DNA of 64,000 bases, taken from positions 1 to 64,000 of the IMG/VR virus record IMGVR_UViG_2765236019_000001, one strand, 5' to 3'. The DNA is from a virus. Taxonomy: Duplodnaviria; Caudoviricetes. How positions within the stretch are numbered: position 1 is the stretch's first letter; each line of letters begins with the position of its first letter. Under the pieces are notes generated by a model. It saw nothing but the letters and a program-made list of their open reading frames with translations. It was not told the origin of the DNA and searched no databases. Of the stretch, positions 568 through 56,614 are shown in pieces. The position numbers and the translations under genes were made by a program.

Positions 568-1002
568 TCAGGACGGCCGTGTGGTGGTGACCGCGTAGAA
601 GGCCACGGCCGCGGCGGCGCCGACGTTGAGGGAGTCGATGCCGTGGGCCATGGGGATGCGGACCCACTCGTCGGCGGCGCGGAGGGCGCCGGTGGAGAGG
701 CCGCCGCCTTCGGCGCCGAGCATCAGGGCGACGCGGTCGAGGGTGTGCGGGGCGGCGGCATCGAGGTCGGTGGCGCCGTCGGCCGGGGTCAGGGCGAGGA
801 GCCGGAAGCCGGCCTCGCGGACCGTGGAGAGGTCGCGCGGCCAGTTCTCCAGCCGGGCGTACGGGACGGAGAACACCGCGCCCATGGAGACCTTGACGGA
901 GCGACGGTAGAGGGGGTCGGCGCAATCCGGGGAGAGCAGGACCGCGTCCATCCCCAGGGCCGCGGCGCTGCGGAAGATGGCGCCGATGTTTGTCGGTGGC
1001 AC
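568..1002 (-). pseudogene. trmH: 3' fragment of a TrmH/SpoU (SPOUT) RNA methyltransferase, truncated by prophage integration
   Basis: SPOUT motifs TNIGAIFRSAAALG, LGAEGGGL and RIPMAHGIDSLNVGAAAAV are present. The N-terminal half is missing and sequence character changes at ~990. Confidence 0.88.
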
Positions 1003-1015
1003 AAGTTAACTACCT
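965..1015. other. Hybrid attachment site (attL/attR) of the serine integrase, predicted central dinucleotide TT at 989-990
   Basis: CGCCGA-TG-TT-TG-TCGGTG (981-998) is pseudo-symmetric around TT. It lies exactly where trmH homology stops and ~75 bp upstream of the integrase. Confidence 0.7.
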
Positions 1016-1066
1016 AGCCAACACGTGTGTGAAAAAGGATCATCCGACACACACGAGGGGCCCTGA

Positions 1067-2815
1067 ATGGTCGACGTGCAGGAAAAGCCGCGCCGAAAGG
1101 GACGCGGGTACATTCGCGTCTCGAAGAAGCGCCGGGACATGATCAGCCCGGAGATCCAGCGTGACGAGATCAATCACCTCGCTGAACGCGAGAACATCGA
1201 GCAGGTAGCAGAGCCGATTCAGGACCTCGGCCTCTCCGGGCGAGAGTTCGAAGAGCGGCAGATCAACAAACTCGTCGAGGACGTCGAGGCTGCCATCATC
1301 CAGGTCGTCTTGCTTTGGAAGTGGAGCCGCTTCGGCCGCAACACGCTCCAATCCCTGCTGAACATTCAGCGCATCTACGACGCAGGCGGGGATGTCCGCG
1401 CAGCGACGGAAGATTTCGACGGCAAGACGAGCGTCGGACGCCTCCAGATCACCCAGATGCTCGGATGGGCACAGTTCCAGTCCGATCAGATCGGGGAGAA
1501 CTGGCAGTCCGCACACAAGTACCGGCGGAAGAAAGGACTGCCCCACAGCGGCTTCAAGACGTTCGGCTACAAGATCTGTTTCACATGCCCACCACACGAA
1601 CCAGGCGAACGCCGTAACAAGTGCGACAACTGTCGCGACGGCATTCAGAAGCTGGACCCGGACACGCAGGATGCATTGGCCGGAGTGTGGCGGCGCTTCA
1701 CGTTCCAGAACGAGCCGATGAAGCGCATCTGTGACGACCTGTGGGAACGCGGGTTCCGAACCGAGAGCGGAGAACGGATCACGCCGACGCAGATGTACAA
1801 ATGGCTGGACAGCGGCTTCAGTCTCGGTTGGGTGCGCTGGCGATCGAAGGAAAAGATCCTCCAGGACAAAAAGGTCGTCCGAGAAGGTAGGAAGAACTAC
1901 TACCGAAGCTCTCGTCCGGAGTACTTCGACGTCTGGGTAACCGGAGCGCACGAGGCTGTCATCGAGGATCCCAACGAGCGGGAGCTGCTCTGGCTGACGT
2001 ATCTGTCCAAGCGTTTCGGTTCGCCTCAGCTCCCCAAATCGCACCACGACCCGAAGTACAGCATCTCCGGTCTCGCTCGCTGCACAGGACTACGACTCTT
2101 CGAGATCACCCGAACGCGTGGCCAGTGGAAGACCGCAATCTGCGGGAGGAATGAGGGCGCCTTCTCGCGAGGCAAGGAAAGGATGGAGCAATACCCGCCG
2201 CTACCCAACGGAGATCGCAATCCTCACACCGTCTACTTCCGCTGCACCCATGGCGCCCTCTACAAGGATTGCACAGGCAGCGGTTCAATCGGCGTCGCGC
2301 GTGCCGAGAAGGAACTGCTCGATTGGTTGGTCAAGCAATCCCAAGGCGAAGCATCTGTCGACGAGAAGATCGCCGCAGCGAAGGACCAGTTCGCCTTGAA
2401 GGGATCAGCCGACGAACAAGCAGAGGTATCTAAGAAGCTCAAGGAGCTGGACGAAGAGTCCTCTCGCTTGGTGCGCGGCTACACGAAGGGAATCATCGAC
2501 GAGGACAACTACGTTAAGGAGAAGCAACGCATCGAGTCCGAGATCTCAGCAGCGCGGGAGCGCCTGAAACTTTTCTCCGCGAAGGTCGTCGCCTTGCGTC
2601 CGGCACAGGCTCGGTTCCTTGGACTGGTCGAGGAATGGGAGCACATGACGTACTCGCGAAAGCGGCAGGCTCTGTCCACTGTGATTTCGCACTTCTGGGT
2701 GTACCGCGAAAAGGCGAGAAGCAAGCCACGAATCCGCGTGGTTCCTCTCTGGGCGGAGGAGCACGAACGGCTCGCCCCTCCGCCGCCAGGCCATCCTGCT
2801 GACGAAGTCGACTAG
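1067..2815 (+). CDS. int: Large serine recombinase (phage integrase)
   Basis: YIRVS catalytic Ser motif, SG and SRFGRN motifs, recombinase domain, Zn ribbon (SGLARC...CG...YFRC...C) and coiled coil. Confidence 0.95.
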   Translation: MVDVQEKPRRKGRGYIRVSKKRRDMISPEIQRDEINHLAERENIEQVAEPIQDLGLSGREFEERQINKLVEDVEAAIIQVVLLWKWSRFGRNTLQSLLNIQRIYDAGGDVRAATEDFDGKTSVGRLQITQMLGWAQFQSDQIGENWQSAHKYRRKKGLPHSGFKTFGYKICFTCPPHEPGERRNKCDNCRDGIQKLDPDTQDALAGVWRRFTFQNEPMKRICDDLWERGFRTESGERITPTQMYKWLDSGFSLGWVRWRSKEKILQDKKVVREGRKNYYRSSRPEYFDVWVTGAHEAVIEDPNERELLWLTYLSKRFGSPQLPKSHHDPKYSISGLARCTGLRLFEITRTRGQWKTAICGRNEGAFSRGKERMEQYPPLPNGDRNPHTVYFRCTHGALYKDCTGSGSIGVARAEKELLDWLVKQSQGEASVDEKIAAAKDQFALKGSADEQAEVSKKLKELDEESSRLVRGYTKGIIDEDNYVKEKQRIESEISAARERLKLFSAKVVALRPAQARFLGLVEEWEHMTYSRKRQALSTVISHFWVYREKARSKPRIRVVPLWAEEHERLAPPPPGHPADEVD

Positions 2816-2997
2816 GCCGCGTCCCTGAGCGGTGGGAGTTGAGACTCATGATGGTCTTGCTCCCACCGGCTCTGTCGTTCTAGGACTGCTTGGGCGATCA
2901 CAGCCCAAAAGCTGTCCCAGCACTGTTCTTCTCCGAGTGAGACCCTTTCGGATTCAGAAGGCACAGACACTACTTCTGCTACACCCTGGTCTTCCAT
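2812..2997 (-). CDS. Small acidic protein convergent with the integrase (candidate directionality factor)
   Basis: Strong SD GAGGAGGT just before the ATG, stop overlapping the integrase stop. Function inferred from position only. Confidence 0.6.
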   Translation of the reverse strand: MEDQGVAEVVSVPSESERVSLGEEQCWDSFWAVIAQAVLERQSRWEQDHHESQLPPLRDAA

Positions 2998-3128
2998 TCG
3001 ACCTCCTCGGCCCCGAGTTTCGGGAGCTGAGGCGAGCCTATGGAATGGGCAGAAAAACAGTTAGGTCCTTCAAGAGCGGCGGCTGAGCTAAGAGACAAGC
3101 GAGAACGAAAGAATCAGCAGAAACAGCT

Positions 3129-3156
3129 AAGGGGCCCCGGCCGGGGCCCCTTTTTT
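3129..3156 (+). terminator. Intrinsic terminator
   Basis: Perfect 24-bp palindrome AAGGGGCCCCGGCCGGGGCCCCTT running into a T tract. Confidence 0.8.
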
Positions 3157-3179
3157 CATACCCGAAAACAGGAGGAAGC

Positions 3180-3293
3180 ATGTCTCACGTATGGGTGGTA
3201 TTCGCCTTCGTCGGCGCGGCGCTGGCCGGGCTCGCGGCGGTGTGGCTCGCCGACATATCGGAGGGTGAAGGGAAGCACCGGAAGCGCCGATAG
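3180..3293 (+). CDS. 37-aa single-pass membrane peptide
   Basis: SD AGGAGG then ATG. Translation MSHVWVVFAFVGAALAGLAAVWLADISEGEGKHRKRR, below the ORF-track cutoff. Confidence 0.65.
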   Translation: MSHVWVVFAFVGAALAGLAAVWLADISEGEGKHRKRR

Positions 3294-3491
3294 CCGTGGG
3301 AGAGCCCAGAGTCAAGGGCTGGGCTCTCCACTGTTCCTCATACCAGGACGGTGCCGTTTCTCTCGCATTCGACGCAGGCGTCAATTTCTGGCCAGCGTCC
3401 CCGGCATCGAGGACAGGTCTTCTCTTCCACATCTGCCTCGTGACCGCCGTTCCAGTGCTGGCCGGTGGTCGAGTAGTTAGTAGTCATTCTT

Positions 3492-4784
3492 TCAGTCCTC
3501 GATTACGTCGGCATCGACGATGTTCTGCTCAGCAGCTTCGGAAGGCGTCGCGGGGAGGGCGTGGTGTGGTGTTTCCTGGGCTCCGAAGAGGCGGCTGATG
3601 AGTCCGGTTTCAGCGGCGCCCTTCTGGGTGGCCTTGATGGAGATGCTTACCGATGCCTCGTCGGCCTTACGTTTGCTGGCTGCGAGCTTGCTCCACCTGT
3701 CGATTTCCTCGGAGAGGACAGGGTCCAGTTCGTTTTCGCCGTAGGACTCTTCGGCACGGGCTCTCTTGTACACCCGGCCGAGTTGAAGTTCGAGGACTGT
3801 TGCCTCGGCGTCGGCGAGCTGCTCCTTGGTGCGGATTGTGGGGTTGTCTGGTCGGTGCCAGGGGGCGACGGTAGTTACTCCCTGGTGCCGCTCCTGGAGG
3901 GACTGGGTATCAACTGTGTTGGAGGCAAAATCCACGTTCGGTTCGGTAGTGTTTGGAGTCGTGGGAGTTACTCCCCTGATGCTGGCGTTGAGCTTTTCCA
4001 TATAACGGGACCAGGCGTAGATGGATAGGCGTAGGACTTCGGTGGGGTCGTCCTGGTCGATAAGGTCGATGTCGTATCCAGCGTCGACGAACTCCTGGCG
4101 GTGCCGCTTGCGGGCACGGTCCTTCATCTTCTTGGGGTAGCGGCGCAGTTCTCCTCCGGAGAACCAGATGGTGTCCCCGAATTGGCTGGGTGAGAGCCAG
4201 CTCGTGCTGGTGACGGCGTGGAAGGGCGCGGTCTGGAGGAGGTCGGGCTTAGTGATGCCTAGGCCGAAGAGGCGTACGCCCGTTGAGCGGACGATGCGGG
4301 CCAGGCGGTGTGCGAGGTTGTTGTCGATGGCGTCCTTGGGGATGGCGACGTTGGGCCAGTTCTCGCAGATTTCGTCCAGGTCTTGGCCGGGGTGCCAGAC
4401 GAATACCGCCTTGGCCCTGTGTTCCTCCAACCAGGGCAGGCGCTTCATGCGATGGTCGGCGTCGAGGCGGGCGGCGTCGAATTCCACGAAGAAGTCGATG
4501 CGGCTGAGGTTCGGTTGGATGAACTCGTCGTAGTAGTGGTCGGCGATGTCGGCGAGTTCATCGGCTGTCGGGGCGCTGGCGGGGTTGTGGTTGAGGCTGT
4601 AGGTGCCGGAGTCGATGAGGATTTGGACGGCCGGGTCGTTGTAGTAGGCGTTGATATCGAAGGGCTTGGTGAACTTGTTGCGCTTGCGCAGTGCCCAGTA
4701 GCTGAGCGAGTGCTTGAGGTGGCCTTCGGCTATGAGGAGTCGCCGGTACACAGGAAATTCTGTGCCCGCTTGGTAGAGGTCCAT
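3492..4784 (-). CDS. TGT/DpdA-like (guanine transglycosylase fold) protein with a C-terminal helical extension
   Basis: Motifs ILIDSGTYS, VFVWH, RLFGLG and VTSTSW in TGT/DpdA order. Likely start MDLYQAG with SD AGGA. Confidence 0.7.
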   Translation of the reverse strand: MDLYQAGTEFPVYRRLLIAEGHLKHSLSYWALRKRNKFTKPFDINAYYNDPAVQILIDSGTYSLNHNPASAPTADELADIADHYYDEFIQPNLSRIDFFVEFDAARLDADHRMKRLPWLEEHRAKAVFVWHPGQDLDEICENWPNVAIPKDAIDNNLAHRLARIVRSTGVRLFGLGITKPDLLQTAPFHAVTSTSWLSPSQFGDTIWFSGGELRRYPKKMKDRARKRHRQEFVDAGYDIDLIDQDDPTEVLRLSIYAWSRYMEKLNASIRGVTPTTPNTTEPNVDFASNTVDTQSLQERHQGVTTVAPWHRPDNPTIRTKEQLADAEATVLELQLGRVYKRARAEESYGENELDPVLSEEIDRWSKLAASKRKADEASVSISIKATQKGAAETGLISRLFGAQETPHHALPATPSEAAEQNIVDADVIED

Positions 4785-4792
4785 CGGATGTC

Positions 4793-5284
4793 CTAGAGGG
4801 GCTCGGCGCTGCGACGCGGATCGGTGGCGTATGCCTGGGCCTGGGTTTCGGTCTCCGCGACGAGTTCCGCCCAAGGGCGCAGGCCCTGTTGGTAGTCGGG
4901 GCGCCATTCCGGCTTGGCGAAATGCGGCAGGGTGAGCGTTGTTACGGGGTATCCGCGGGCGAGCAGCTCGACGCTGACAGCAGGGTCGGGCTCGATGACC
5001 AGGTCCAGCTTTATGCCGGTGCCGGTGAGGTGTCCTAGGCACTCCAGGCGTACGTCGGCTGGCGTTGCTGCGTTGGATGTTCGTCGCGGGCCGACGAGTC
5101 GCATGTGCGCTGTGAGGCCGGTGAAGGTGAGCCACTTGTGTGTGGTGGACGGGTTGCGGTCGTCGGCGAGGAGGTACAGCGCGTGGTCGGTGGCGAGGGC
5201 CTGGTAGAGGGCGTTGCCGAGGGGGATGGCGCCGTCGGTGTCGGTGTTGCGCAGGACGCCGTCGATGGTGATGGCGATGTTCAC
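4793..5284 (-). CDS. HAD-superfamily-like protein with a degenerate motif I
   Basis: N-terminal IAITIDGVLR resembles hhhDxDGxL, with a motif IV-like LVIEPD. GTG overlaps the upstream TGA. Confidence 0.6.
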   Translation of the reverse strand: MNIAITIDGVLRNTDTDGAIPLGNALYQALATDHALYLLADDRNPSTTHKWLTFTGLTAHMRLVGPRRTSNAATPADVRLECLGHLTGTGIKLDLVIEPDPAVSVELLARGYPVTTLTLPHFAKPEWRPDYQQGLRPWAELVAETETQAQAYATDPRRSAEPL

Positions 5285-6261
5285 TTCTGGCTCCAGAGGG
5301 CGGCCTTGATCAGGGCGGTCTGGGCGTCGTCGATGGCCTGGCCATAGAGGTCGGTTTCGGTGGACTGCTGTGCTGTGGAGCCGATTTCCTTGAGTTGGCG
5401 CAGTGTGTGAACGGTGCCGTTCTCCTTGGCGGCCTGCCAGCGGAAATTGTTGAAATCGCTATACCCGCTGCCCTGGGGGCTGAAGGCGGCGCGGCGGCCG
5501 AGGTGGATGGCATCGAAGAGGCTGGTCGCCTTGGCGATGACATTGCGCAGTTCGGTGGCGTGGTTCATCCAGGCCGGGGAGCCTTTCGCGAGGGTGCTGA
5601 GGCTGGTGGCGTGGAAGCGGTAGGAGTCCAGGAGTTGCTTGGCCTGGTGTTCGTCCTCGGTAGCTGCCTCGTAGTAGCTCGTGGGGTATAGGGAGCGGAC
5701 GTCGCTCGGCAGGTGGGGTGGGGTGACGGTCCACTCGTCGTGGGTGAGGGAGTAGGCCGCGTAGGGGTGGATCGAGGTGATGTCCTTCACGCCTCGCGCC
5801 GGGTTCCAGTAAAAGGTGACCTCGTACGTCCGACTCCCGATTTGGCTGTGGGCCGTCTTGGGCCATAGTCCGTTGCGCAGGCTCTCGTTGACGTACCTGG
5901 CGGTCTCTTCAGCTGTGAGTCCGGCGTAGCCGTCGTTGTGGTAGGTGAACTGGGCGTAGTTGACGCCGATCAGTACGTCGAGATCGCCGTTTCCTCGGTC
6001 GGCTGCCCACTGGTAGGTGATTCCGGAACCGGCCAGCCAGACCTCCGCCCACTGGTCGAATCCCGGGGTGGCGAGGAAGAACTCACGCAGCGTGCCGAGG
6101 ATCCAGTCGCGGATGGACGGCTTGAGGTGGGTGCCGTCGAAAAGGTTGGGGTCGAGTTCTGCGGAAGGCTCGGAGAAGTAGCCGCTTCCGCCGTGTACGG
6201 GGTCGGGTATGTCTGTGAGGGACTCGGCGAGTCGATCGTAAAAGACGTTGGGGCCACTCAT
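5281..6261 (-). CDS. Nucleotidyltransferase, DNA polymerase beta superfamily
   Basis: VWLAGS...GDLDVLIGV matches the hG[GS]...DxD signature, with a candidate third acid in YEVTFY. Confidence 0.85.
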   Translation of the reverse strand: MSGPNVFYDRLAESLTDIPDPVHGGSGYFSEPSAELDPNLFDGTHLKPSIRDWILGTLREFFLATPGFDQWAEVWLAGSGITYQWAADRGNGDLDVLIGVNYAQFTYHNDGYAGLTAEETARYVNESLRNGLWPKTAHSQIGSRTYEVTFYWNPARGVKDITSIHPYAAYSLTHDEWTVTPPHLPSDVRSLYPTSYYEAATEDEHQAKQLLDSYRFHATSLSTLAKGSPAWMNHATELRNVIAKATSLFDAIHLGRRAAFSPQGSGYSDFNNFRWQAAKENGTVHTLRQLKEIGSTAQQSTETDLYGQAIDDAQTALIKAALWSQK

Positions 6262-6268
6262 AGATGCG

Positions 6269-6298
6269 ACGCTATGAGTGGCCCCAGACTAAGTGTTA
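6269..6298 (-). promoter_or_regulatory. TAACAC-N18-TAGCGT promoter, probably leaderless, overlapping a 15-bp hairpin
   Basis: The -10 TAGCGT ends 7 nt before the ATG at 6261. Inverted repeat at 6249-6263 / 6272-6286. Confidence 0.65.
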
Positions 6299-6316
6299 GT
6301 GCTCGTTCTGCCTCTG

Positions 6317-6832
6317 CTAGTTCCTGGAGAGAGGTTCTCCGACGTCTACGGTAAGGCTTTCGTCGAACCCGCTTTCCAGCCAGCTCAGTAGGAGGCGCGA
6401 GCCGAGTACGAAGCCGCCGCTTACGAATTCGTTGGCTTCGTTGACCTGGGCGACGACGTCCCATTTGAAGGGGATGCCGAGGTAGGCGTCGCCGGGTTTT
6501 TCCCAGGTGGCCTCGTACAGGGCGCCGTTGGCATCTGTGCACCAGGCGTGCTCGGTGGGGAAGAAGGCGCTGGCGAATCCCTCGACGTAGGTGAGGTTGT
6601 CGTGGGCCCAGGTGGCTTCCATGGAGTTGTGGAAGCAGCGCTTGGCGGGTCCTGTGTTGTCGACGGGGAGGGCGCGGTCTGGACGGAAGACCCGGCCGTG
6701 CTTGATGAGGACCTCGCCGATGTGGTGATGCGCCCAGTTCGGGTAGCGCTTGGCGCTGTTGCCCTTGGCGGTGCTGGTGAGCATGTCGAGCCACTGCACG
6801 ATGCGGCTGATGCCCTGGTCGATGACAGCCAC
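6317..6832 (-). CDS. Hypothetical protein with a papain/transglutaminase-like Cys-His motif
   Basis: CFHNS...YVEGFA...HAWC...EATW...YLGIPF. SD AGGGG. Confidence 0.6.
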   Translation of the reverse strand: MAVIDQGISRIVQWLDMLTSTAKGNSAKRYPNWAHHHIGEVLIKHGRVFRPDRALPVDNTGPAKRCFHNSMEATWAHDNLTYVEGFASAFFPTEHAWCTDANGALYEATWEKPGDAYLGIPFKWDVVAQVNEANEFVSGGFVLGSRLLLSWLESGFDESLTVDVGEPLSRN

Positions 6833-6878
6833 TGCCGTCCCCCTTTGTTCGCGCTTTCTGGTGTGACGAGCCTACGAC

Positions 6879-7217
6879 GTGTTCTCGCAGCTGATCCTTC
6901 CGGGCACCAAGGACGTTGTCGACTTCGAGGCCAGGGACTCCGGCGCCCCCGTCGGCGAGCTGCTCGGCGCGGGAGAATGGCTTGCCGGGGAGTGGGTAGG
7001 CAGCGACGGCATCACCGACGCCGAGGCCGTGGGGACCTGGTACCTGGAGCTGGACGACCTGATCATCAACGAGGTCGACGAGGCCCTGGAGGCCCAGGCC
7101 GACGCCGACGAGAAGGGCTCCAACGGCGCCGAGCGCCGTCACCCTTGCATCCACGAGATTCCCGTCCTGCGCCTGCCGAAGCTCGATGCGGCTCGGAAGG
7201 AGTGCCAGGAGGCGTGA
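6879..7217 (+). CDS. Acidic hypothetical protein
   Basis: High-GC3 codons, coupled to the next ORF by GTGA. 25 D/E versus 9 K/R in 112 aa. Confidence 0.55.
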   Translation: MFSQLILPGTKDVVDFEARDSGAPVGELLGAGEWLAGEWVGSDGITDAEAVGTWYLELDDLIINEVDEALEAQADADEKGSNGAERRHPCIHEIPVLRLPKLDAARKECQEA

Positions 7218-7372
7218 ACATCAACCAGCCATCCCTCACCGTCCCGCCGGAAGAGCTGGAACGCTTCGAGGAACTCGTCCGCTACCTGGCCGCCCACGAC
7301 GGCAGGACGCCGACCGACGACATGCCGCTGGCCTGGTGGCTCGTCGAGGCCCTGGAACAGCCCCGGCTCTAG
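7214..7372 (+). CDS. 52-aa hypothetical protein
   Basis: SD AGGAGG and a GTGA overlap. MNINQPSLTVPPEELERFEELVRYL... Confidence 0.6.
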   Translation: MNINQPSLTVPPEELERFEELVRYLAAHDGRTPTDDMPLAWWLVEALEQPRL

Positions 7373-7429
7373 ATGCTCGGGTTACGGCCCAGATACGCCA
7401 GCATCCCTTACGGGAAACTCTGGCGCACC

Positions 7430-7525
7430 GCGCTAATCGCAGGGGGCATTTCCTTACACCCCTGCGATTAGCGCAATACTCAATGAATTAACTGCAAGGC
7501 GCTTCGATGCGCCTTGCAGTTAATT
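7430..7525. terminator. Two tandem perfect hairpins between convergent genes
   Basis: 16-bp inverted repeat at 7430-7445/7459-7474 and 17-bp inverted repeat at 7486-7502/7509-7525, the second followed by Ts. Confidence 0.7.
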
Positions 7526-7534
7526 TTTCGCTAG

Positions 7535-7831
7535 TCAGTTATTCGACTTCTTCTTGTCACGCTGGTGACGAAGGCGCGTATTTTCGGCGCGGGAGACCAC
7601 ACGGAGATTCGAGGGCCGGTTGTCGGTGTAGTTGCCGTTGATGTGGTCGACGGTTTCGTCCGAGCGCAGCGTACGGCCGAGCTTCTTTTCGGCAGCGAGG
7701 CGGTGGGCGTAGGTGACCTTGCCGGTCTTGGGGTCGCGGACGCTGCCGTAGCCCTTCTTCGTCTTGCCGCCGGTCCACTTGCCGCCCTTGGCTGCGGTTT
7801 CGCCTGCGCTGGGCTTCTTGGCCGTAGACAT
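7535..7831 (-). CDS. HNH endonuclease (short)
   Basis: YAHRL...VDHINGNYTDNRPSNLRVVSRAEN. TGATG overlap with the upstream gene. Confidence 0.85.
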   Translation of the reverse strand: MSTAKKPSAGETAAKGGKWTGGKTKKGYGSVRDPKTGKVTYAHRLAAEKKLGRTLRSDETVDHINGNYTDNRPSNLRVVSRAENTRLRHQRDKKKSNN

Positions 7832-8082
7832 CAGTGCTCCTCGATGTGCTTGGGCCAGTGCCATGTGCCGCCAAGCTGGGCTTCTTCGTCCTGGGGGCAG
7901 CCGCTGTTGAAGTAGAGGCCGTTGGGGTTGAGGACGGCGAGGCTGATGCGGACGGGGCCTTCGGTGTCCTGGTGCTGGCTGGTTTCGGTGACGATGGCGG
8001 CGCGGCAGTGGGGCGGGTGCTGGCCGTCGGGGGTGCCGTGGGAGCGGTAGTGGACGATCCGTCCGAGTGTGGGCTGCTGCAT
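7831..8082 (-). CDS. Conserved small phage protein
   Basis: PTLGRIVHY...RAAIVT...GTWHWP pattern common in phages. SD AAGGA. Confidence 0.7.
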   Translation of the reverse strand: MQQPTLGRIVHYRSHGTPDGQHPPHCRAAIVTETSQHQDTEGPVRISLAVLNPNGLYFNSGCPQDEEAQLGGTWHWPKHIEEH

Positions 8083-8084: not shown

Positions 8085-8594
8085 CTATTCCTTGGGAGTG
8101 GTTTTGGCGCAGAGGTCGGCGCGTACCCGGTTCATCACGGGGCAGAAGTCGCAGAGGTAGCGGTCCTTGGCGCTGCGGTACTTGGGGAGTCCGGCCGCCT
8201 TGCGGTCGGCGTTGGTGCCGGGGGTGAGCATGACCCTCTTGCTGCGGAAGTCTCCGCAATCGAGGGTCCGGTTGTGCTTCTTCCAGCAGACCATGGCGTC
8301 TTCCTGGAAGGTGTTCTTGGTGGTGTAGAAGTCAACACCAAGTCCTTCGGAGGCTTCGCCGCCAATATGCTTGGTGATTTTCTTGACGACCTCGTCCTTG
8401 TAGTGCGGGTTCTGCCAGTGCTTTTTAGAGATGGACATAAGCTGGCCGACGTGGCGATTACCGTCCGGGTACACGTGCCGTGCCGTGAGGTTTTCCAGGA
8501 GGAAATCCTCACGAGAGTTCCCCTGGTAATCGGGGAGTTCTTCAATCGTCTTGCACTCCATGCACAGCAGGAGTCGTACCTTTTCTTCAGCCAC
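8085..8594 (-). CDS. Cys-rich hypothetical phage protein
   Basis: CxxC near both ends (CMEC, CDFC), downstream of a TAACGC-N18-TACGGT promoter. Confidence 0.75.
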   Translation of the reverse strand: MAEEKVRLLLCMECKTIEELPDYQGNSREDFLLENLTARHVYPDGNRHVGQLMSISKKHWQNPHYKDEVVKKITKHIGGEASEGLGVDFYTTKNTFQEDAMVCWKKHNRTLDCGDFRSKRVMLTPGTNADRKAAGLPKYRSAKDRYLCDFCPVMNRVRADLCAKTTPKE

Positions 8595-8747: not shown

Positions 8748-9209
8748 ATGCCACAAGAATTCACGCCGCAGTCCGCCGCGGAAATCATTGAGGAAATCAT
8801 CGAGGCAGCCTACGAGATCGCTGATGGCTGGTACCAAGAGGCGCCGATCGACTGGGATGACCTTCTCTATCGGTTGGATGGCACTGAACTCGCAGACGGA
8901 CGCGTGCTGTACATGCCGGAGGACATGCTGCATCCCGCGATCAAAGCTCTTCAGCGGGCGGTGCGTGCGTGCAGGAGGAGGCGCGCGGGTAGGCCGAGAG
9001 CTTCGTCACCGCAATCCGGCGGCGTAAGAACACTGGGGCCAAGCGCCAGGGCCCTGCCCGCGCAGGACGTTCTCTGCAATGCGGATCTGCTCGGCCCGGG
9101 TCTGTTGGTGCGGCATGCCGGAGCCGCCGTAGGCGCGCCAGGTGGCCAGGGAGAACTGAAGACCGCCGTAGTAGCCGTTGCCGGTGTTGATGTGCCAGTT
9201 GCCGCTTGA
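8748..9209 (+). CDS. Acidic hypothetical protein, probably leaderless, whose 3' part reads antisense into the rpf gene
   Basis: TACCGT ends 7 nt before the ATG. The first ~75 codons look protein-like, the rest looks like a shadow of the opposite strand. Confidence 0.45.
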   Translation: MPQEFTPQSAAEIIEEIIEAAYEIADGWYQEAPIDWDDLLYRLDGTELADGRVLYMPEDMLHPAIKALQRAVRACRRRRAGRPRASSPQSGGVRTLGPSARALPAQDVLCNADLLGPGLLVRHAGAAVGAPGGQGELKTAVVAVAGVDVPVAA

Positions 9210-9530
9210 CTCGCACTGGGCGAGCTTGTCCCACCGGATGATCGAGGTGGTCGGCGTCGGGGGGCGCTGGTGGACGCTGGGGGCGTTGAGGCGGAGCTGC
9301 TGGCCGGGGACGATGACGTCGGGGTCGCGGCCAATCGATTCCCGGTTAGCGTTGTAGAGGGCCTGCCACTTCGTTGATGAGCCCAGCTGTTGCTGCGCGA
9401 TCTGGCTGAGGGTGTCGCCGGGCCGGACGGTGTAGGTCTTGGTCGAAGCCGCGGTCGCAGTGCCGGTTGACAGTGCGATTGCTGTGGCGGTGATGGCGGG
9501 GACAATCGCTAGGGCGAGCTTGCGAGTCAT
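9006..9530 (-). CDS. Secreted LysM + resuscitation-promoting factor (Rpf) transglycosylase
   Basis: Signal peptide (ATA-A), LysM YTVRPGDTLSQIA, and Rpf signature WDKLAQCESSGNWHINTGNGYYGGLQF...QGPGAWPQC. Confidence 0.93.
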   Translation of the reverse strand: MTRKLALAIVPAITATAIALSTGTATAASTKTYTVRPGDTLSQIAQQQLGSSTKWQALYNANRESIGRDPDVIVPGQQLRLNAPSVHQRPPTPTTSIIRWDKLAQCESSGNWHINTGNGYYGGLQFSLATWRAYGGSGMPHQQTRAEQIRIAENVLRGQGPGAWPQCSYAAGLR

Positions 9531-9598
9531 TTCGGTACCCAACGTTGGGGATAGGGGCCGTCTCGGCTCTCCCGCGAGTTTCCGCCCGAGACCTTTCG

Positions 9599-9628
9599 AG
9601 AGTATGGAGGCGCCCCGACTAGGAGTTA
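9599..9628 (-). promoter_or_regulatory. TAACTC-N18-TACTCT promoter of rpf, inside a hairpin after the holin
   Basis: Motif match. Inverted repeat GCCCCGACTA/TAGTCGGGGC at 9612-9636. Confidence 0.6.
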
Positions 9629-9644
9629 GTCGGGGCCCCTGTTT

Positions 9645-9866
9645 TCAGTTCTCGTTGCGCGCGTCTACGAGGACGTGCTGCTTTGCGGTCACCTTCGTTC
9701 GGGATTCGAGTCCGACGATGAGGACGAGGAGGGTGTTGAGTCCTCCGATCACTGCCTCGTTGGCCTCGACGCCTGCAAGGGCCGGGACGAAATGCACGAG
9801 AGCGGTGAGCAGTCCTACTACGACGGTGCGGGTGAGGATGGGGTTGTTCTTGATGTATTCGATCAT
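9645..9866 (-). CDS. Holin (two transmembrane segments)
   Basis: Hydrophobic 73 aa, SD GGAGGAGG, ATGA overlap with the endolysin stop. Confidence 0.75.
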   Translation of the reverse strand: MIEYIKNNPILTRTVVVGLLTALVHFVPALAGVEANEAVIGGLNTLLVLIVGLESRTKVTAKQHVLVDARNEN

Positions 9867-11155
9867 CGCATGAGCCTCCTCCAGGTGACGGGGCCGACGT
9901 TTCCGTCTGCGTCGGTGCCGCGCCATCCTTGGTTTTCTTGGAATGCCTTGACCCCGGCTCGGGTTGTCTTTCCGTAATAGCTTGAGGGCCCGTAGGTGAG
10001 GTAATGGCCGTATCCGTGCCGGATGAGGGCCTGGTCGACCTGGAGGACTTGGGGGCCCTTCGTGCCGTAGCGGACGGCGGAGCGTCCCGGGTAGGTGCTG
10101 GCGCTGGTGGTGCCGATCAGCGCGCGCAGGGTGGCGGGGCCGGGGATGCCGTCGGCAGAGGCTCCTCGGTATCCGAGTGACCGCTGATAGGCGGCGTAGG
10201 CGCGGGTGTCTGCTGTGGTCCAGCGGGGGCCGGGGCCCACGGCGTAGTAGCTGCCCAGACCACGGCGTACGAGGGCCTGCCCGAGCGTGGTGATGTGGGT
10301 GCCGTAGGCGCCTGGTCCGTAGGCGAGTCCGTTGATGGTGACCTGGTAGGTGCCGAGCCCGGTGTTGTCGTGGGTGGGCGGCGGCTTGGGGTTGTCCGGC
10401 TGGCTGGGCCGCGCCCCTTGGGGCAGGTGCAGTTCCTGGCCGGGCAGGATGTGGCTGGGGTTCTTCACCTGCGGGTTGGCGCCGATGAGGCTGGCGAGGG
10501 AGACGCCTGCCGCGACCGCGATGGCCGCCATTGTCTGACCGGCTCGGACGATCCATGTGCGGTTGGTCGGCTTGCCGTGGCCTCCTCCCCCAGCTGCGTC
10601 GAAGAGCGCTGCTGTGTTGATCGCGCCCGGATCCCAGTGGTCGTTGCCTGGGACGTGGCAGTGCCCGTAATGGCCGCCGCGGTTGAGCCAGGTTGATCGG
10701 TTGCGGTTGTGGGCGGCAGCTGCCGTTGCGGCGGGAGGGCCCATGGGCCAGGTGTCGGGGACGTCCCAGGAACGGATGGCGGCCATCAGGGCGCGCCAAT
10801 TGGGCCCTGGGCGCCAGTAGTTGGTGAAGGGATTGCTGGCGCGGGCCAGTACCTCGATCTGAATGCAGACGGATCCGGTGCGGTTGGTGCGGCTGGAGTC
10901 GTCGTTCTTCAGAGCGCGGGCGCTTTCATCCAGCGGCCCGTACTGTCCGATGCGGTCGGTGGTGGGGTCGTACAGGATGTGGGGTTCGGCGTTGATGTTG
11001 GAGAGGTAGGCGGCGACGTCGTCGAACGCTGCGCTGCCTGCGCCGGATTCTGTGGTGTGCCAGACGACGCGGGGCGGGAGGCTGGGGGTGTCCATGGCAC
11101 CACCGATTCGGCCGCTGCCAATCCGCTCGGCGCCGGGTATCCATCGTGTGCCCAT
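9863..11155 (-). CDS. Endolysin: N-acetylmuramoyl-L-alanine amidase + LysM + two peptidoglycan-binding domains
   Basis: VVWHTTE, IQIE and GHCHVPGNDHWDPG amidase motifs, LysM WIVRAGQTM, ADGIPGPAT and ADGNVGPVTW. SD AAGGAG. Confidence 0.92.
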   Translation of the reverse strand: MGTRWIPGAERIGSGRIGGAMDTPSLPPRVVWHTTESGAGSAAFDDVAAYLSNINAEPHILYDPTTDRIGQYGPLDESARALKNDDSSRTNRTGSVCIQIEVLARASNPFTNYWRPGPNWRALMAAIRSWDVPDTWPMGPPAATAAAAHNRNRSTWLNRGGHYGHCHVPGNDHWDPGAINTAALFDAAGGGGHGKPTNRTWIVRAGQTMAAIAVAAGVSLASLIGANPQVKNPSHILPGQELHLPQGARPSQPDNPKPPPTHDNTGLGTYQVTINGLAYGPGAYGTHITTLGQALVRRGLGSYYAVGPGPRWTTADTRAYAAYQRSLGYRGASADGIPGPATLRALIGTTSASTYPGRSAVRYGTKGPQVLQVDQALIRHGYGHYLTYGPSSYYGKTTRAGVKAFQENQGWRGTDADGNVGPVTWRRLMR

Positions 11156-11171
11156 GGGGCTCCTTGGGGTC

Positions 11172-11399
11172 TTACGCGTACTGGTGGGATCTCTGCGGGT
11201 AGCGGCAGGTGCGGGCGGCTGCGGCATCCTCGTCCAGGCCGAGGGATCCGAACGTGCGCGGTTCGAGAGTGTCGGATCGGGACTCGTTGGTGAGGCGCTC
11301 GACGTAGCCGCCTCGGTTGGGGGCGGCCTTGCGGATCGTGCCGTCGCAGGCGCCGTAGCCAAGTTCGGTGGTGAGGGGGGCTCGGGGGATGTATGCCAT
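11172..11399 (-). CDS. Small hypothetical late protein
   Basis: Translationally coupled member of a small-gene run. Confidence 0.6.
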   Translation of the reverse strand: MAYIPRAPLTTELGYGACDGTIRKAAPNRGGYVERLTNESRSDTLEPRTFGSLGLDEDAAAARTCRYPQRSHQYA

Positions 11400-54861: not shown

Positions 54862-55292
54862 TCGGTTACCTCCTCGGGGGGCAGCTTAGCGGCAGACAGC
54901 ACTGCCCCCGACCGCAACTTGCCAGCGGCCGGGGGCAGTTGATCACTCAGGCGTTCTGGAAGTGACCAGGGCTTCCGCTGCCGCCCTGGCCGTCGCCGTC
55001 CTCAACGTCGGTATTATCCGACCCCGTGGCCGCCGTCATCCTCGCCGCCGTGCGCGGCGGCATTCCTCTCCAGTGCTTCCTTGAGGGTCACAGGCGTTTG
55101 CCTTCCCAAGAAATTCGATTCGAGGAGTTTCCCCGGATCGTGGTGCACCTGCTGGCCCGGCCGCCTGATGGCCGGGGGCTTGCCCGCCCCCGTCGAGACT
55201 CTCGCCCCGGGTGGGGGAATGCGATTGTCTGCGACGGGTAGCGGAGTTTAAAGAGGCGTTATTGGCCATTCACGGCGCACCGCCAGAGGTTT

Positions 55293-55448
55293 TCACGTTC
55301 CGTACCAGCGCCCCTCCTTCTGGCCGCGCTCATCGAGGTTCTGCGACACCATCGCCTGTCGCTCCTTGGCGTTTTGAGTGCCAGCCACCTCCGAGTCCCG
55401 GTTGCGCCGCTCTTTAGCGGCCTTGATGGTGTGTTTTGCTTTCGACAC
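55293..55448 (-). CDS. 51-aa basic micro-protein
   Basis: SD GAGAGGA. MSKAKHTIKAAKERRNRDSE...RWYGT. Confidence 0.5.
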   Translation of the reverse strand: MSKAKHTIKAAKERRNRDSEVAGTQNAKERQAMVSQNLDERGQKEGRWYGT

Positions 55449-55543
55449 TGCTTTTCCTCTCTTTCATCGGGCCCGTCCCACTAGTCCACCGTTGTTTGGG
55501 ATGGCGGGCCGGGGTACGGATCCGGCAACGGCGCTAACGACCG

Positions 55544-55699
55544 CTATTTCCCGGACTGCCTGTCGGCAATCTCCTGTGCAGATTGCGCAGCCGCATCACG
55601 TACCGCCGGAGGGAGACTCTCATCTCCGGCTGCCTGACTCAGGCTTTTGATACTGGCGATGTCGTTGAAAAACTCGTCGTCGTCATTCTGCTTGCCCAT
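55544..55699 (-). CDS. 51-aa acidic micro-protein
   Basis: SD GAGGT. MGKQNDDDEFFNDIASIKSL... Confidence 0.5.
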   Translation of the reverse strand: MGKQNDDDEFFNDIASIKSLSQAAGDESLPPAVRDAAAQSAQEIADRQSGK

Positions 55700-55783
55700 G
55701 TCACCTCTTTTGAAATCGTTTCAGGTTTCTTACCGGACGAACGCAGGAGCGTAGCGACCGGCGGCACACATGCGGGAGTAGTC

Positions 55784-56029
55784 TCACGACTGTATGCCGC
55801 GGGTAGCTACCGTCCATGCTTCGGCCAGCATTCCGTACCTCCGCACTCGAAATCGATATTTCTCCGATTCGGCGGCTGTCGCATGCCGACACTGGTCGGG
55901 GTCCGCGTCCCATTCTTCCCCAAGGCCAGTTGATTCATCCACCAGCGTCGGAATACCGTCTCGGAAGTCCGTGACGCGGGCAACGGTTTTTCGGCCTTCA
56001 TCAAACACTATGCTGCCGACCTTCCACAT
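55784..56029 (-). CDS. Small SH3-like protein typical of Streptomyces XRE cassettes
   Basis: VGSIVFD...GEEWDADP...R.AT..E. SD GGAGGT. Confidence 0.65.
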   Translation of the reverse strand: MWKVGSIVFDEGRKTVARVTDFRDGIPTLVDESTGLGEEWDADPDQCRHATAAESEKYRFRVRRYGMLAEAWTVATRGIQS

Positions 56030-56100
56030 CGCGCACCTCCCAGAAGAGAAATGAGTGTGTCAGGAGAAGGAGTGCTCACCCTTGGGCCGAGTGTTTCGGA

Positions 56101-56439: not shown

Positions 56440-56614
56440 GGATCTTTACGCCCCAACCGACGAGCGTGCCCTTCAGCCAGTACTCACTGACCTGGAAATC
56501 ACTGGCGATCTTATTAAGCGGCTCCCCGCCGTCGTACCGATTGACCACTTCAGCCTTACTGCGTCGTACAGTCTGCCGCGCTTCTTCGACCTCTTTTTGA
56601 GTCCGCCGCGCCAT
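56393..56614 (-). CDS. Small HTH protein
   Basis: RYDGGEPLNKIA.DF.VS......L..WGVKIRGRG. Confidence 0.7.
   Translation of the reverse strand: MARRTQKEVEEARQTVRRSKAEVVNRYDGGEPLNKIASDFQVSEYWLKGTLVGWGVKIRGRGGARGRESDGRG

What the first reader, a model, noticed from the sequence alone, without database searches (positions are those of the whole stretch)
3492..6298. Coupled nucleotidyltransferase + pseudo-HAD + pseudo-TGT/DpdA operon: candidate uncharacterised nucleic-acid modification module
Seen: three tightly coupled genes (GTGA overlap, then an 8-nt gap) behind one promoter-like motif. The nucleotidyltransferase keeps its GS..DxD motif. The HAD-like protein has Thr where the nucleophilic Asp of DxD is expected (TIDGVL). 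The TGT-like protein keeps DSG but has VTSTSW where DpdA/TGT enzymes carry the nucleophilic Asp (D-S-T/S), and LFG instead of the usual His-Gly. It also has a ~160-aa C-terminal extension. Known: phage DpdA swaps guanine for 7-deazaguanines, usually with folE/queCDE nearby, and none of these is in this window. Inference: one active transferase may work with two repurposed folds that bind substrate or scaffold. Possible roles are nucleotidylation of DNA, tRNA or protein, anti-defence, or a packaging-linked function.
Basis: partly seen in the sequence, partly recalled or inferred. Interest (0 to 1): 0.8.

Follow-up and report, generated by a model that had tools for sequence, protein, structure and literature searches.

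The report
Phage DpdA-like module lacking catalytic nucleophile
A Streptomyces prophage carries a widely conserved three-gene set built around a relative of the phage enzymes that swap guanine in DNA, but this relative has lost the residue that does the swapping and has no source of the usual replacement base, so it probably does something new to DNA.

Summary
Three coupled minus-strand genes (5281-6261, 4793-5284, 3492-4784) end the late operon of a prophage, next to a serine integrase.

- **Gene 3** is a true DpdA-family TIM barrel. Bacillus phage BCD7 DpdA, which sits in a FolE-QueC-QueE-QueD cluster, bridges it to the validated CAjan and 9g enzymes.
- It keeps the acid/base Asp (D58), S59, Y62, H131 and E101/D103.
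- The nucleophile Asp (CAjan D206) is T192 here. It is Ser/Ala/Thr/Gly or another non-Asp residue in 204 of 206 aligned proteins.
- No preQ0 genes were found in the window or in 66 related loci. The host genome has no TGT match and no convincing QueC.
- **The module is real.** Over 66 related loci, a gene-2 homologue lies upstream in 66, a gene-1 homologue in 60 and a Cys-rich 165-aa protein in 62.
- Homologues of gene 3 carry inteins at three conserved sites.
- **Gene 1** has an intact Pol-beta-type motif set, with modest fold support.
- **Gene 2** lacks any conserved nucleophile, and its HAD fold was not demonstrated.

My reading is a non-canonical, DNA-directed DpdA derivative with an obligate small partner, not a 7-deazaguanine inserter. 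Its chemistry is unknown. I class it as a new variant of a known kind.

The parts
5281..6261 (-). P0001, 326 aa: Pol-beta-type nucleotidyltransferase-like protein (G78-S79, D93-x-D95, E147) with a C-terminal helical bundle
4793..5284 (-). P0002, 163 aa: small 'HAD-like' partner with no conserved nucleophile; invariant G9, L11, R12, W51, R79, P99-D100-P101 and W127-R128-P129-D130
   Evidence: Found upstream of the DpdA-like gene in 66 of 66 loci. Fold not shown. Annotators call the homologues 'hydrolase' or 'phosphatase'.
3492..4784 (-). P0003, 430 aa: DpdA/TGT-family TIM barrel (1-270), a disordered linker (271-313) and a helical C-terminal domain (314-430). The nucleophile Asp is replaced by T192 and the Cys4 cluster is absent.
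6249..6286 (-). 15-bp perfect hairpin whose 3' arm contains the P0001 AUG and the next codons; likely translational control
   Evidence: Folding energy -29.8 kcal/mol, z -6.24, 0 of 200 shuffles as stable. A start-occluding hairpin was also predicted in the relatives folded, with a different sequence in the 'METN' group.
3129..3152 (.). Bidirectional terminator-like GC hairpin between the end of the DpdA-like gene and the integrase gene
8085..8594 (-). Cys-rich 169-aa protein (two CxxC pairs) that travels with the module
   Evidence: Homologue present in 62 of 66 loci. 34% identical to GiJojo gp175 and BRock gp42. No Pfam, PHROG or PADLOC family.
1067..2815 (+). Integrase gene (582 aa), read by eye as a large serine recombinase; it marks the prophage end next to the module
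   Evidence: ORF. Homologues lie downstream of the DpdA-like gene in 7 of 66 loci. The 'serine recombinase' label is my reading of the sequence and was not run against a family library.

Best explanation
This is a conserved late-operon module of actinobacterial phages and prophages.

Its core is a DpdA-family DNA-binding TIM-barrel protein. That protein keeps the guanine/7-deazaguanine-type pocket (D58, S59, Y62, E101/D103, H131) but has lost the Asp that forms the covalent ribosyl-enzyme intermediate. It is always paired with a small partner protein (P0002), usually with a Pol-beta-type nucleotidyltransferase (P0001), and usually with a Cys-rich protein.

Because neither the phage nor the host can make preQ0, it does not insert 7-deazaguanines.

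The mechanism I commit to is as follows. The protein binds duplex DNA through the basic stretch at residues 215-228 and the C-terminal domain, and flips a guanine into the retained pocket. A small residue (Ala/Ser/Thr/Gly) now sits where the nucleophile was. It therefore acts by single displacement: D58 protonates the leaving base, and water or a partner-supplied group attacks C1'. The outcome would be guanine excision or a non-canonical exchange.

Shown: family membership, loss of the nucleophile, retention of the pocket residues, absence of the preQ0 pathway, and module co-occurrence.

Inferred: DNA as the substrate, any catalysis at all, and the roles of the partners.

Within this statement I give about 0.3 to real single-displacement catalysis and about 0.25 to a purely binding (pseudo-enzyme) role, which is listed as a rival.
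For: Homology.
- P0003 matches phrog_887 at E 1.8e-32.
- It aligns to BCD7 gp021 at E 3e-19. BCD7 gp021 lies directly after FolE, QueC, QueE and QueD.
- The BCD7 N-domain in turn hits CAjan, 9g and Iggy DpdA.
- The family HMM hits CAjan at 5e-9 and 9g at 8e-9.

Fold.
- The AF2 N-domain has pLDDT of about 82-96 in most 10-residue blocks.

Residue mapping with the published CAjan numbers.
- D63 maps to D58, S64 to S59, F67 to Y62 and H132 to H131.
- The nucleophile D206 maps to T192.

Clade-wide loss.
- Position 192 is S 74, A 51, T 33, G 20 in 206 rows, and Asp in only 2 (P0237 and BCD7).
- In the S. Montevideo enzyme, Ala replacement of the nucleophile abolishes guanine exchange (PMC10164549, passages read).

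No preQ0 supply.
- PF01702 gives 0 matches in the genome.
- QueC gives only partial matches inside 651- and 793-aa frames on other contigs.
- PTPS and FolE matches are on other contigs.
- BCD7 QueC/D/E/FolE queries hit 0 of 66 loci and nothing in the window, while the positive controls hit.

Module.
- P0002 homologue in 66/66 loci, P0001 homologue in 60/66, Cys-rich protein in 62/66. In the 51 viral loci the order and strand were the same throughout; the 15 genome loci listed show the same order.
- The same 6 phage records are hit by all three proteins.
- NCBI locus tags are adjacent in three genomes.

Importance.
- The family has 2860 representative clusters at E<=1e-3.
- Inteins sit at three conserved sites: D204|T205, inside CDxC, and before the fourth Cys.
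Against: - No activity, substrate or DNA modification has been measured for any member.
- The 66 loci were retrieved with peptide patterns that contain the non-Asp motif, so they cannot show how often Asp occurs. They also sample one clade of related phages, so the co-occurrence counts are not independent events.
- Only two Asp-type loci with useful flanks were available as contrast (BCD7 and BS162P1). Both lack P0001 and P0002 homologues.
- I had no model coordinates, so I cannot exclude that another acidic residue reaches the anomeric carbon. D/E204 is conserved in 201 of 206 rows, but it is also present in BCD7.
- The mapping of the base-recognition Asp is ambiguous: MAFFT pairs CAjan D105 with D108, not with the invariant D103.
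- The Gly-Gly loop of DpdA is absent (P149-K150).
- The window's own protein also lacks the Cys4 cluster that 59 of 67 sequences carry. This might mean decay in this particular subgroup.
- The position at the end of the lysis region is unusual for a DNA-modification gene.
- Fold similarity alone is weak evidence. Foldseek scores OMP decarboxylase barrels almost as well as TGT.
Confidence: 0.5

Rival explanations
1. Pseudo-enzyme reading. The DpdA-like protein and its small partner are both catalytically dead and act as a DNA-binding or scaffolding complex. Possible roles are guanine-flipping site recognition, DNA-end or site protection, or a protein made late and packaged with the DNA. The NTase would be the only enzyme.
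For: Both proteins lack their expected nucleophiles across the family. The module lies at the end of the late operon after the lysis genes, in the window and in BRock and GiJojo. A conserved basic stretch and an acidic C-terminal tail suggest binding functions. Non-catalytic TGT paralogues exist, such as the eukaryotic QTRT2 subunit (recalled, not from a call).
Against: Pocket residues that are only needed to handle a base stay nearly invariant (D58 in 62/66, D103 in 66/66, S193, T194 and W196 in 66/66). Three independent intein sites sit in conserved motifs; that inteins favour such sites in enzymes is general knowledge, not a test made here. No virion proteomics is available.
Confidence: 0.25
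2. Cap10-like reading. As in type IV CBASS, the TGT-fold protein binds a tail of the neighbouring nucleotidyltransferase, possibly carrying a nucleobase or nucleotide, and controls or targets that enzyme. The module would then be a signalling, defence or counter-defence device rather than a DNA-modification system.
Against: There is no QueC-like Cap9 in the genome. Cap10 keeps its catalytic Asp (D248), whereas this clade does not. P0001 showed no CD-NTase match among the listed structural hits. PADLOC gave no match for any of the proteins. The NTase is missing from 6 of 66 loci while the small partner never is. The module also occurs in BRock, described as virulent, and in other ~110-kb phages. 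Sequence homology is to DNA-acting phage DpdA.
Confidence: 0.1
3. tRNA-directed reading. The three folds (TGT-like, Pol-beta NTase as in class I CCA-adding enzymes, HAD-type phosphatase as in Pnkp) act on tRNA, for example to repair or remodel tRNAs attacked by host anticodon nucleases.
For: All three fold classes have tRNA-acting members (general knowledge). BRock encodes 29 tRNAs (PMC7453282, abstract and one passage seen).
Against: The window holds 0 tRNA genes. The nearest sequence relatives are DNA-acting DpdA, not TGT; 0 of 31 family members match Pfam TGT. The HAD-like and TGT-like proteins lack their nucleophiles. No RNA ligase or kinase was noticed in the module.
Confidence: 0.07
4. 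Canonical DpdA after all. It would insert a 7-deazaguanine scavenged from the host or the environment, with another residue acting as the nucleophile.
For: General acid/base and pocket residues are retained. 'Singleton' DpdA phages without synthesis genes are known (PMC6884629, passages read).
Against: The nucleophile is absent in 204 of 206 rows. The host genome (99.95% complete) has no TGT match and no convincing QueC. No Que genes lie in 66 loci. Ala replacement of the nucleophile kills the bacterial enzyme.
Confidence: 0.05

Closest known systems
Phage DpdA (7-deazaguanine DNA transglycosylase), in particular the long BCD7 gp021-type form; validated members are CAjan, 9g and Iggy DpdA
   Same: Homologous TIM-barrel domain. 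D-S-G acid/base motif, stacking aromatic, pocket His and the S-T-x-W motif are shared. The C-terminal domain is shared with BCD7 gp021, and with a separate ORF in Bacteroides phage BS162P1. The gene is phage-encoded.
   Different: The nucleophile Asp is replaced by T/A/S/G. There are no preQ0 genes in the phage or host. The neighbours are a small HAD-like protein, an NTase and a Cys-rich protein instead of FolE/QueCDE. The gene lies at the end of the late/lysis region rather than among DNA-metabolism genes. The window's protein lacks the Cys4 cluster.
Bacterial and archaeal tRNA-guanine transglycosylases (TGT, arcTGT)
   Different: No Pfam TGT match in 0 of 31 members. No nucleophile Asp. No canonical CxCxxC...H zinc site in the window's protein. 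About 12% identity.
Cap10 of type IV CBASS (TGT-family partner of the CD-NTase CdnD)
   Different: Cap10 keeps its catalytic Asp and works with the QueC-like Cap9 and a deazaguanine. Here there is no QueC, no Asp, no CD-NTase signature and no PADLOC match, and the context is phage rather than defence island.
HAD-superfamily small phosphatases (NT5C / NIF type)
   Same: Size, an N-terminal h-h-h-h-x-x-D-G-V-L strand, and an acidic E-P-D-P strand late in the protein, both read by eye. Annotators' labels are 'hydrolase' or 'phosphatase'. There is an ESM Atlas lead to a NIF-type HAD cluster (score 0.90, rank 21, 155 shared features).
   Different: No conserved Asp nucleophile. No Pfam or PDB profile match. 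hhalign against an NT5C alignment gave probability 0.11%. Membership is not established.

Membership tests
DpdA / TGT superfamily | (beta/alpha)8 TGT-type barrel | tested here: met
DpdA / TGT superfamily | Sequence homology to experimentally validated DpdA | tested here: met
   BLASTP to BCD7 gp021 gives E 3e-19. The BCD7 N-domain hits CAjan, 9g and Iggy by tblastn. The family HMM hits CAjan at 5e-9 and 9g at 8e-9.
DpdA / TGT superfamily | General acid/base Asp (S. Montevideo D95, CAjan D63) followed by Ser | tested here: met
   D58-S59 is invariant in the 8-sequence alignment. Asp is present in 62 of 66 loci.
DpdA / TGT superfamily | Nucleophile Asp (S. Montevideo D256, CAjan D206, Z. mobilis D280) | tested here: not met
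   T192 occupies this position in the window. The column reads T, A, A, A for four clade members and D, D, D, D for BCD7, BS162P1, CAjan and 9g. Asp occurs in 2 of 206 rows and in 0 of 66 loci, though those were retrieved with patterns biased to non-Asp.
DpdA / TGT superfamily | Base-recognition Asp (S. Montevideo D130, CAjan D105) | tested here: inconclusive
   E101 and D103 are invariant or near-invariant, and BCD7 has the same E-x-D. However, MAFFT pairs CAjan D105 with D108.
DpdA / TGT superfamily | Pocket His (CAjan H132) and Gly-Gly loop (CAjan G153-G154) | tested here: inconclusive
   The His is met: H131 in the window and His in 55 of 66 loci. The Gly-Gly loop is not met (P149-K150), but BCD7, which has a full preQ0 cluster, also lacks it.
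DpdA / TGT superfamily | Access to preQ0 or a related 7-deazaguanine (phage or host pathway) | tested here: not met
   own genome, 99.95% complete; 0 of 66 loci and 0 in the window, with positive controls hitting.
Pol-beta-type nucleotidyltransferase | hG[GS] ... D-x-D plus a third carboxylate on a later strand | tested here: met
   G78, S79, D93 and D95 are invariant and E147 is 90% or more conserved in 33 homologues. The strands are placed as expected in the AF2 model.
Pol-beta-type nucleotidyltransferase | NTase core fold or family-model match | tested here: inconclusive
HAD superfamily | Motif I Asp nucleophile (D-x-D) | tested here: not met
   The first position is T/V/I/L and the second is D/E/N in 17 homologues.
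HAD superfamily | Rossmannoid HAD fold or profile similarity | tested here: inconclusive
   No Pfam match (one member hit Hydrolase_6 at E 0.14). No PDB profile match. hhalign against NT5C gave probability 0.11%. There is an ESM Atlas lead only.
Type IV CBASS (CD-NTase + Cap9 + Cap10) | QueC-like Cap9 and a Cap10 with catalytic Asp beside a CD-NTase | tested here: not met
   No convincing QueC in the genome. No Asp at the catalytic position. No PADLOC match for any of the five window proteins tested. The CD-NTase fold of P0001 is inconclusive.

The most novel reading that the evidence does not exclude
The clade is a natural 'nucleophile-less' transglycosylase. Replacing the covalent-catalysis Asp with a small residue opens the anomeric face of a flipped guanine nucleotide. 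A group delivered by the partner proteins, such as a nucleotide or another moiety activated by the NTase and held by the dead HAD-like protein, is then attached to or exchanged into phage DNA. That would be a previously unknown DNA hypermodification pathway of actinophages that needs no 7-deazaguanine.
Probability: 0.15. Interest if true: 0.85.

Novelty: new variant of a known kind. Interest (0 to 1): 0.62.

Why it matters
Phage DpdA enzymes are the only known route by which 7-deazaguanines enter phage DNA. Published work treats the three active-site Asp residues as invariant (PMC10164549).

Here a large clade has discarded the nucleophile. It has hundreds of 50%-identity clusters, occurs in lytic ~110-kb Streptomyces phages and in prophages of at least five actinobacterial genera, and is conserved enough to host inteins at three sites. 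It has lost all link to preQ0 synthesis and has acquired a fixed set of new partner genes.

This offers a concrete, testable case of what a TGT-fold DNA enzyme becomes when covalent catalysis is lost. It could be a glycosylase, a reader or a new exchange chemistry. It also flags that 'queuine tRNA-ribosyltransferase / DpdA-like' annotations in these genomes should not be read as evidence of deazaguanine-modified DNA.

Cultured phages on laboratory Streptomyces strains (BRock, GiJojo, LuckySocke, Alone3) make the experiments straightforward.

Tried and rejected
- **Family libraries.** Pfam, NCBIfam and PADLOC gave nothing meaningful for the three proteins. PHROGs matched only P0003.
- **Module neighbours.** Pfam and PHROGs gave nothing for genes X and Y, the Cys-rich protein, the 171-aa protein or the 125-aa protein.
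- **PDB sequence searches.** Profile searches with A1, A2 and A3 found nothing credible.
- **HAD test.** hhalign of the P0002 family against three NT5C proteins gave probability 0.11%.
- **BCD7 as query.** Searching viral contigs with BCD7 gp021 returned only BCD7 itself, so I could not build a large Asp-type contrast set.
- **Promoter.** The sigma-70 scan found 0 sites in 2800-7600.
- **tRNA.** No tRNA gene was found in the window.
- **Sequencing runs.** None was listed and no RNA holder was listed.
- **Earlier-findings tool.** It was closed.
- **Second copy.** I considered that 60667-63998 might hold a second copy of the module because of similar ORF lengths. By eye these ORFs are a major capsid protein, a scaffold protein and a portal, and I rejected the idea.
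- **Lysis or cell-wall role.** I considered this because of the position after the endolysin. I set it aside because gene 3 is homologous to DNA-acting DpdA and carries inteins and a basic DNA-binding-like stretch. It is not excluded.
- **Literature.** Eight searches found no paper describing this clade, its loss of the nucleophile or its partners. Supplementary tables of PMC6884629 and PMC10516641, which list DpdA-encoding phages, could not be seen and may include BRock or BCD7.


Full report
**1. What is in the sequence**

On the minus strand there are three ORFs.
- P0001 is 5281-6261 (326 aa).
- P0002 is 4793-5284 (163 aa, GTG start).
- P0003 is 3492-4784 (430 aa; the longer ORF listed from 5135 overlaps P0002 and is not the gene).

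The P0001 stop and the P0002 start share GTGA. The P0003 ATG follows the P0002 TAG after 8 nt.

Downstream of P0003 lies a bidirectional terminator-like hairpin (3129-3152). Beyond it is a 582-aa integrase gene on the plus strand (1067-2815), which I read by eye as a large serine recombinase.

Upstream on the minus strand, in order, are:
- a 171-aa ORF;
- an HNH endonuclease (7535-7864; Pfam HNH_3 at 2.7e-15);
- a Cys-rich 169-aa ORF (8085-8594);
- an Rpf/LysM-like lysin and an endolysin (9006-11362; the names are by eye, supported by similarity to GiJojo and BRock lysis genes).

Capsid, scaffold and portal ORFs lie at 60.7-64 kb (by eye). The three genes therefore close the late operon of a prophage longer than 63 kb.

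The consensus scan found no sigma-70-like promoter in 2800-7600. Its folding energy is -29.8 kcal/mol, z is -6.24, and 0 of 200 shuffles fold as well.

**2. Gene 3 is a DpdA-family protein without the nucleophile**

*Homology*
- Pfam gives nothing, but PHROGs gives phrog_887 ('queuine tRNA-ribosyltransferase') at 1.8e-32.
- tblastn against 50,697 phage records hits 9 records. Six are Streptomyces phage records (BRock twice, GiJojo, LuckySocke, Alone3, pSt2308), two are Bacillus phage BCD7, and one is an unannotated phage.
- BCD7 gp021 (757 aa) lies directly after GTP cyclohydrolase, QueC, QueE and QueD genes, so it belongs to a real 7-deazaguanine cluster.
- BCD7 gp021 aligns to P0003 at E 3e-19 over residues 3-258, and weakly over the C-terminal domain.
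- Its N-domain in turn hits 143 phage records, including CAjan, 9g and Iggy DpdA.
- An HMM of the P0003 family hits CAjan DpdA at 5e-9 and 9g DpdA at 8e-9 in a small search set.

*Fold*
- The AF2 model (mean pLDDT 75.9; most 10-residue blocks of 1-270 score 82-96; 271-313 and 378-430 are below 50) is a TIM barrel.
- Foldseek's first PDB hit is Z. mobilis TGT (1q66, E 2.7e-5), although OMP decarboxylase barrels follow closely.

*Residue mapping*

Published residue roles come from passages I read in PMC7544227 (CAjan: D63, S64, F67, D105, H132, G153, G154, F189, nucleophile D206) and in PMC10164549. For the S. Montevideo enzyme the latter names D95 as acid/base, D130 for base recognition and D256 as nucleophile. 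It states that all three Asp residues are invariant in TGT and DpdA, and that Ala replacement abolishes guanine exchange.

In an 8-sequence MAFFT alignment the CAjan numbering reproduces exactly, and maps as follows:

| CAjan | P0003 |
|---|---|
| D63 | D58 |
| S64 | S59 |
| F67 | Y62 |
| H132 | H131 |
| F189 | L175 |
| G153-G154 | P149-K150 |
| D206 (nucleophile) | T192 |

- The nucleophile column reads T, A, A, A for the window, GiJojo, P0018 and P0057. It reads D, D, D, D for BCD7, BS162P1, CAjan and 9g.
- The ungapped BLASTP alignment with BCD7 gives the same pairing.
- CAjan D105 was paired with D108. The family-invariant acidic pair is E101/D103, which matches E-x-D in BCD7, so this one position is ambiguous.

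*Across the family*

I aligned 205 family proteins plus BCD7 to the family HMM. The 205 are 58 from the word-indexed search and 147 of the 150 best rows of the exhaustive search, the other three rows being proteins already held.
- Position 192 is S 74, A 51, T 33, G 20, with a few H/I/V/M. It is Asp only in P0237 and BCD7.
- D58 is present in 147 rows, D103 in 167, W196 in 204, D/E204 in 201 and T205 in 182.

The one correction is that the pocket His of the literature is retained (H131).

*C-terminal extension*
- The roughly 160-aa extension is not peculiar to this protein. BCD7 gp021 has it.
- Bacteroides phage BS162P1 encodes it as a separate ORF right after its Asp-type barrel (E 6e-23 to the family HMM).
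- Most family members have a CxxC...C...C cluster between the barrel and the C-terminal domain (59 of 67 sequences). The window's protein and its closest relatives lack it.

**3. No 7-deazaguanine supply**

In the window's own genome (7.52 Mb, 99.95% complete):
- Pfam TGT has 0 matches.
- QueC has only two marginal partial matches, inside 793- and 651-aa frames on other contigs.
- PTPS/QueD matches only contig C223, and FolE matches only C2 and C221.
- None is on the window's contig C124.

With BCD7 QueD, QueE, QueC and FolE as phmmer queries, nothing matched in the full window or in the flanks of 66 related loci. BCD7 itself and the FolE fragments next to the 9g and CAjan DpdA genes did match. 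Single-sequence sensitivity is limited.

**4. The module is conserved**

*Cultured phages and genomes*
- GiJojo and BRock have, after their endolysin, a 329-aa protein (42% identical to P0001, E 1e-83). Next comes a 167-aa 'hydrolase' (28% identical to P0002, E 2e-20), then one extra gene, then the DpdA-like gene (37% identical, E 2e-66).
- In the phage collection P0001 and P0002 each hit exactly the six Streptomyces records that P0003 hits.
- NCBI locus tags of the three homologues are consecutive in three Streptomyces genomes.

*Related loci*

I then fetched 51 loci from viral contigs and 15 from genomes: ten Streptomyces, two Nonomuraea, and one each of Actinomadura, Herbidospora and Terracoccus. 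I searched their six-frame ORFs with HMMs of the three families and with single proteins. Counts over the 66 loci:

| Gene | Loci with a homologue |
|---|---|
| P0002-like | 66 |
| P0001-like | 60 |
| Cys-rich 165-aa protein | 62 |
| ~125-aa protein | 41 |
| Gene X, between the NTase and P0002 homologues | 22 |
| Gene Y (BRock gp37 type) | 5 |
| Integrase homologue downstream | 7 |

- The P0001-like gene is absent within the flank in L016, L023, L024, L047, L054 and L081.
- In the 51 viral loci the order was always NTase, then P0002-like, then DpdA-like, on one strand. The 15 genome loci listed show the same order.
- Caveat 1: both scans used peptide patterns containing the non-Asp motif. These loci therefore say nothing about how common Asp is.
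- Caveat 2: many loci are close relatives of each other.
- Caveat 3: the last four rows of the table come from single-sequence searches and are lower bounds.
- As a contrast, the two Asp-type loci with real flanks (BCD7 +/-10 kb, BS162P1 +/-6 kb) have no P0001 or P0002 homologue at E<=0.01.

*Family size and inteins*
- The exhaustive profile search found 2860 representative clusters at E<=1e-3 and 378 at E<=1e-30, mostly 470-510 aa.
- Of 8 unusually long members scanned, five carry LAGLIDADG or intein-splicing domains, two carry an N-terminal HNH domain and one has nothing.
- The inteins sit at three different sites. One is between D204 and T205 of the conserved F-G-D-T motif, one is before the second Cys of CDxC, and one is before the fourth Cys.

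**5. The partners**

*P0001*
- It belongs to a large family: 1210 hits at E<=1e-3 among 4018 candidates.
- G78, S79, D93 and D95 are invariant, E147 is nearly so, and a further invariant Gly/Ser-rich N-terminal motif lies at residues 24-41.
- The AF2 model is confident (pLDDT 90.2, pTM 0.81).
- Foldseek finds no PDB match at E<=1e-3.
- ESM Atlas neighbours are viral clusters, some with PF01909. Its structural neighbours include 699- and 956-aa viral proteins that also carry cytidylyltransferase-like and PAP2 domains.
- BFVD gives 11 viral hits at E<=1e-3, almost all unnamed.
- Pfam matches 0 of 33 members.
- I accept a Pol-beta-type NTase with an intact motif set as likely, but not proven.

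*P0002*
- It has only 17 detectable homologues by the word-indexed search, but the HMM finds it in all 66 loci.
- Its invariant residues (G9, L11, R12, W51, R79, P99-D100-P101, W127-R128-P129-D130, W138) do not include a motif I nucleophile.
- The HAD label rests on motif resemblance, annotators' names and one ESM Atlas lead.

**6. Interpretation**

What is shown:
- Gene 3 is a bona fide member of the DpdA lineage by descent and fold.
- It keeps the acid/base and pocket residues.
- It and its whole clade lack the covalent-catalysis Asp.
- No preQ0 source is at hand.
- It is fixed in a module with a small partner and, usually, an NTase and a Cys-rich protein.

By the published mechanism this protein cannot perform the double-displacement exchange. 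The strict conservation of pocket residues, of S193-T194-x-W196 and of G203-D204-T205, together with three intein sites in conserved motifs, argues that the site is still used. The replacement residues are all small.

I therefore favour a DNA-directed protein that still flips a guanine but works without a covalent intermediate. Either it catalyses a single displacement, giving excision or a non-canonical exchange, or it acts as a binder. Overall confidence in this DNA-directed, non-deazaguanine reading is 0.5.

The Cap10 precedent shows that a TGT fold beside an NTase can instead hold a protein tail. I keep that as a 0.1 rival because Cap9 is absent, the catalytic Asp is absent, no defence-system model matches, and the NTase is dispensable in 6 of 66 loci.

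**7. Novelty**

Eight literature searches found no description of this clade.

PMC6884629 (passages read) notes 'singleton' DpdA groups whose function may have diverged. It names Mycobacterium and gamma-proteobacterial phages, not this clade. I could not see its supplementary tables.

I class the finding as a new variant of a known kind.

Noticed in passing
window 6249-6300 (-); L009, L068-L073, L075, L010 at the NTase start: A hairpin occluding the start codon precedes the NTase gene. In the close relatives (L009, L068, L070-L072) the stem is nearly the same, while the more divergent L069 folds only a weak, interrupted stem (-17.3 kcal/mol). In the more distant 'METN' group a different upstream arm pairs with a different start region, which is covariation between groups. 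A conserved C-T-A-A-C-A motif lies about 25 nt upstream in the close group. Together these suggest translational control.
   Followed up: partly
proteins P0182, P0205, P0208, P0255, P0317 (homologues of P0003): Inteins with LAGLIDADG domains sit at three different conserved sites of the DpdA-like family. P0266 and P0277 carry an N-terminal HNH domain.
   Followed up: partly
L063:5860-7642 (Bacteroides phage BS162P1): An Asp-type relative has the barrel and the C-terminal domain as two adjacent ORFs, so the two domains are separable. No Que genes are annotated within 6 kb.
   Followed up: no
window 568-1066: A truncated ORF that looks by eye like the C-terminal part of a SpoU/TrmH-type RNA methyltransferase ends just before the integrase gene. 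The prophage may have integrated into that gene. This was not tested against a family library, and no att site was sought.
   Followed up: no
window 55000-60400: A lower-GC stretch (0.571 at 56-58 kb) holds plus-strand and minus-strand ORFs that look regulatory by eye (a helix-turn-helix-like 337-aa ORF at 59360-60373 and a 144-aa ORF at 58841-59275). It interrupts the structural genes between the capsid ORF and the remaining late genes, and may be an inserted island.
   Followed up: no
window 8085-8594 (-) and homologues in 62 of 66 loci: A Cys-rich protein of about 165 aa, with an N-terminal CxxC and a C-terminal CxxC, has no family assignment but is almost as tightly linked to the module as the NTase.
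   Followed up: partly
P0001 structural neighbours (ESM Atlas, BFVD): A P0001-like domain occurs fused to cytidylyltransferase-like and PAP2 phosphatase domains in 699- and 956-aa viral proteins, and in an 812-aa protein named 'Amidoligase enzyme'. These fusions might hint at the NTase's substrate class.
   Followed up: no
window 9006-9542 (-): The lysin with an Rpf-like transglycosylase domain is 65% identical over its core to GiJojo gp174 and 63% to BRock gp43. A temperate prophage and lytic ~110-kb phages therefore share a block running from the lysis genes to the DpdA-like gene.
   Followed up: partly
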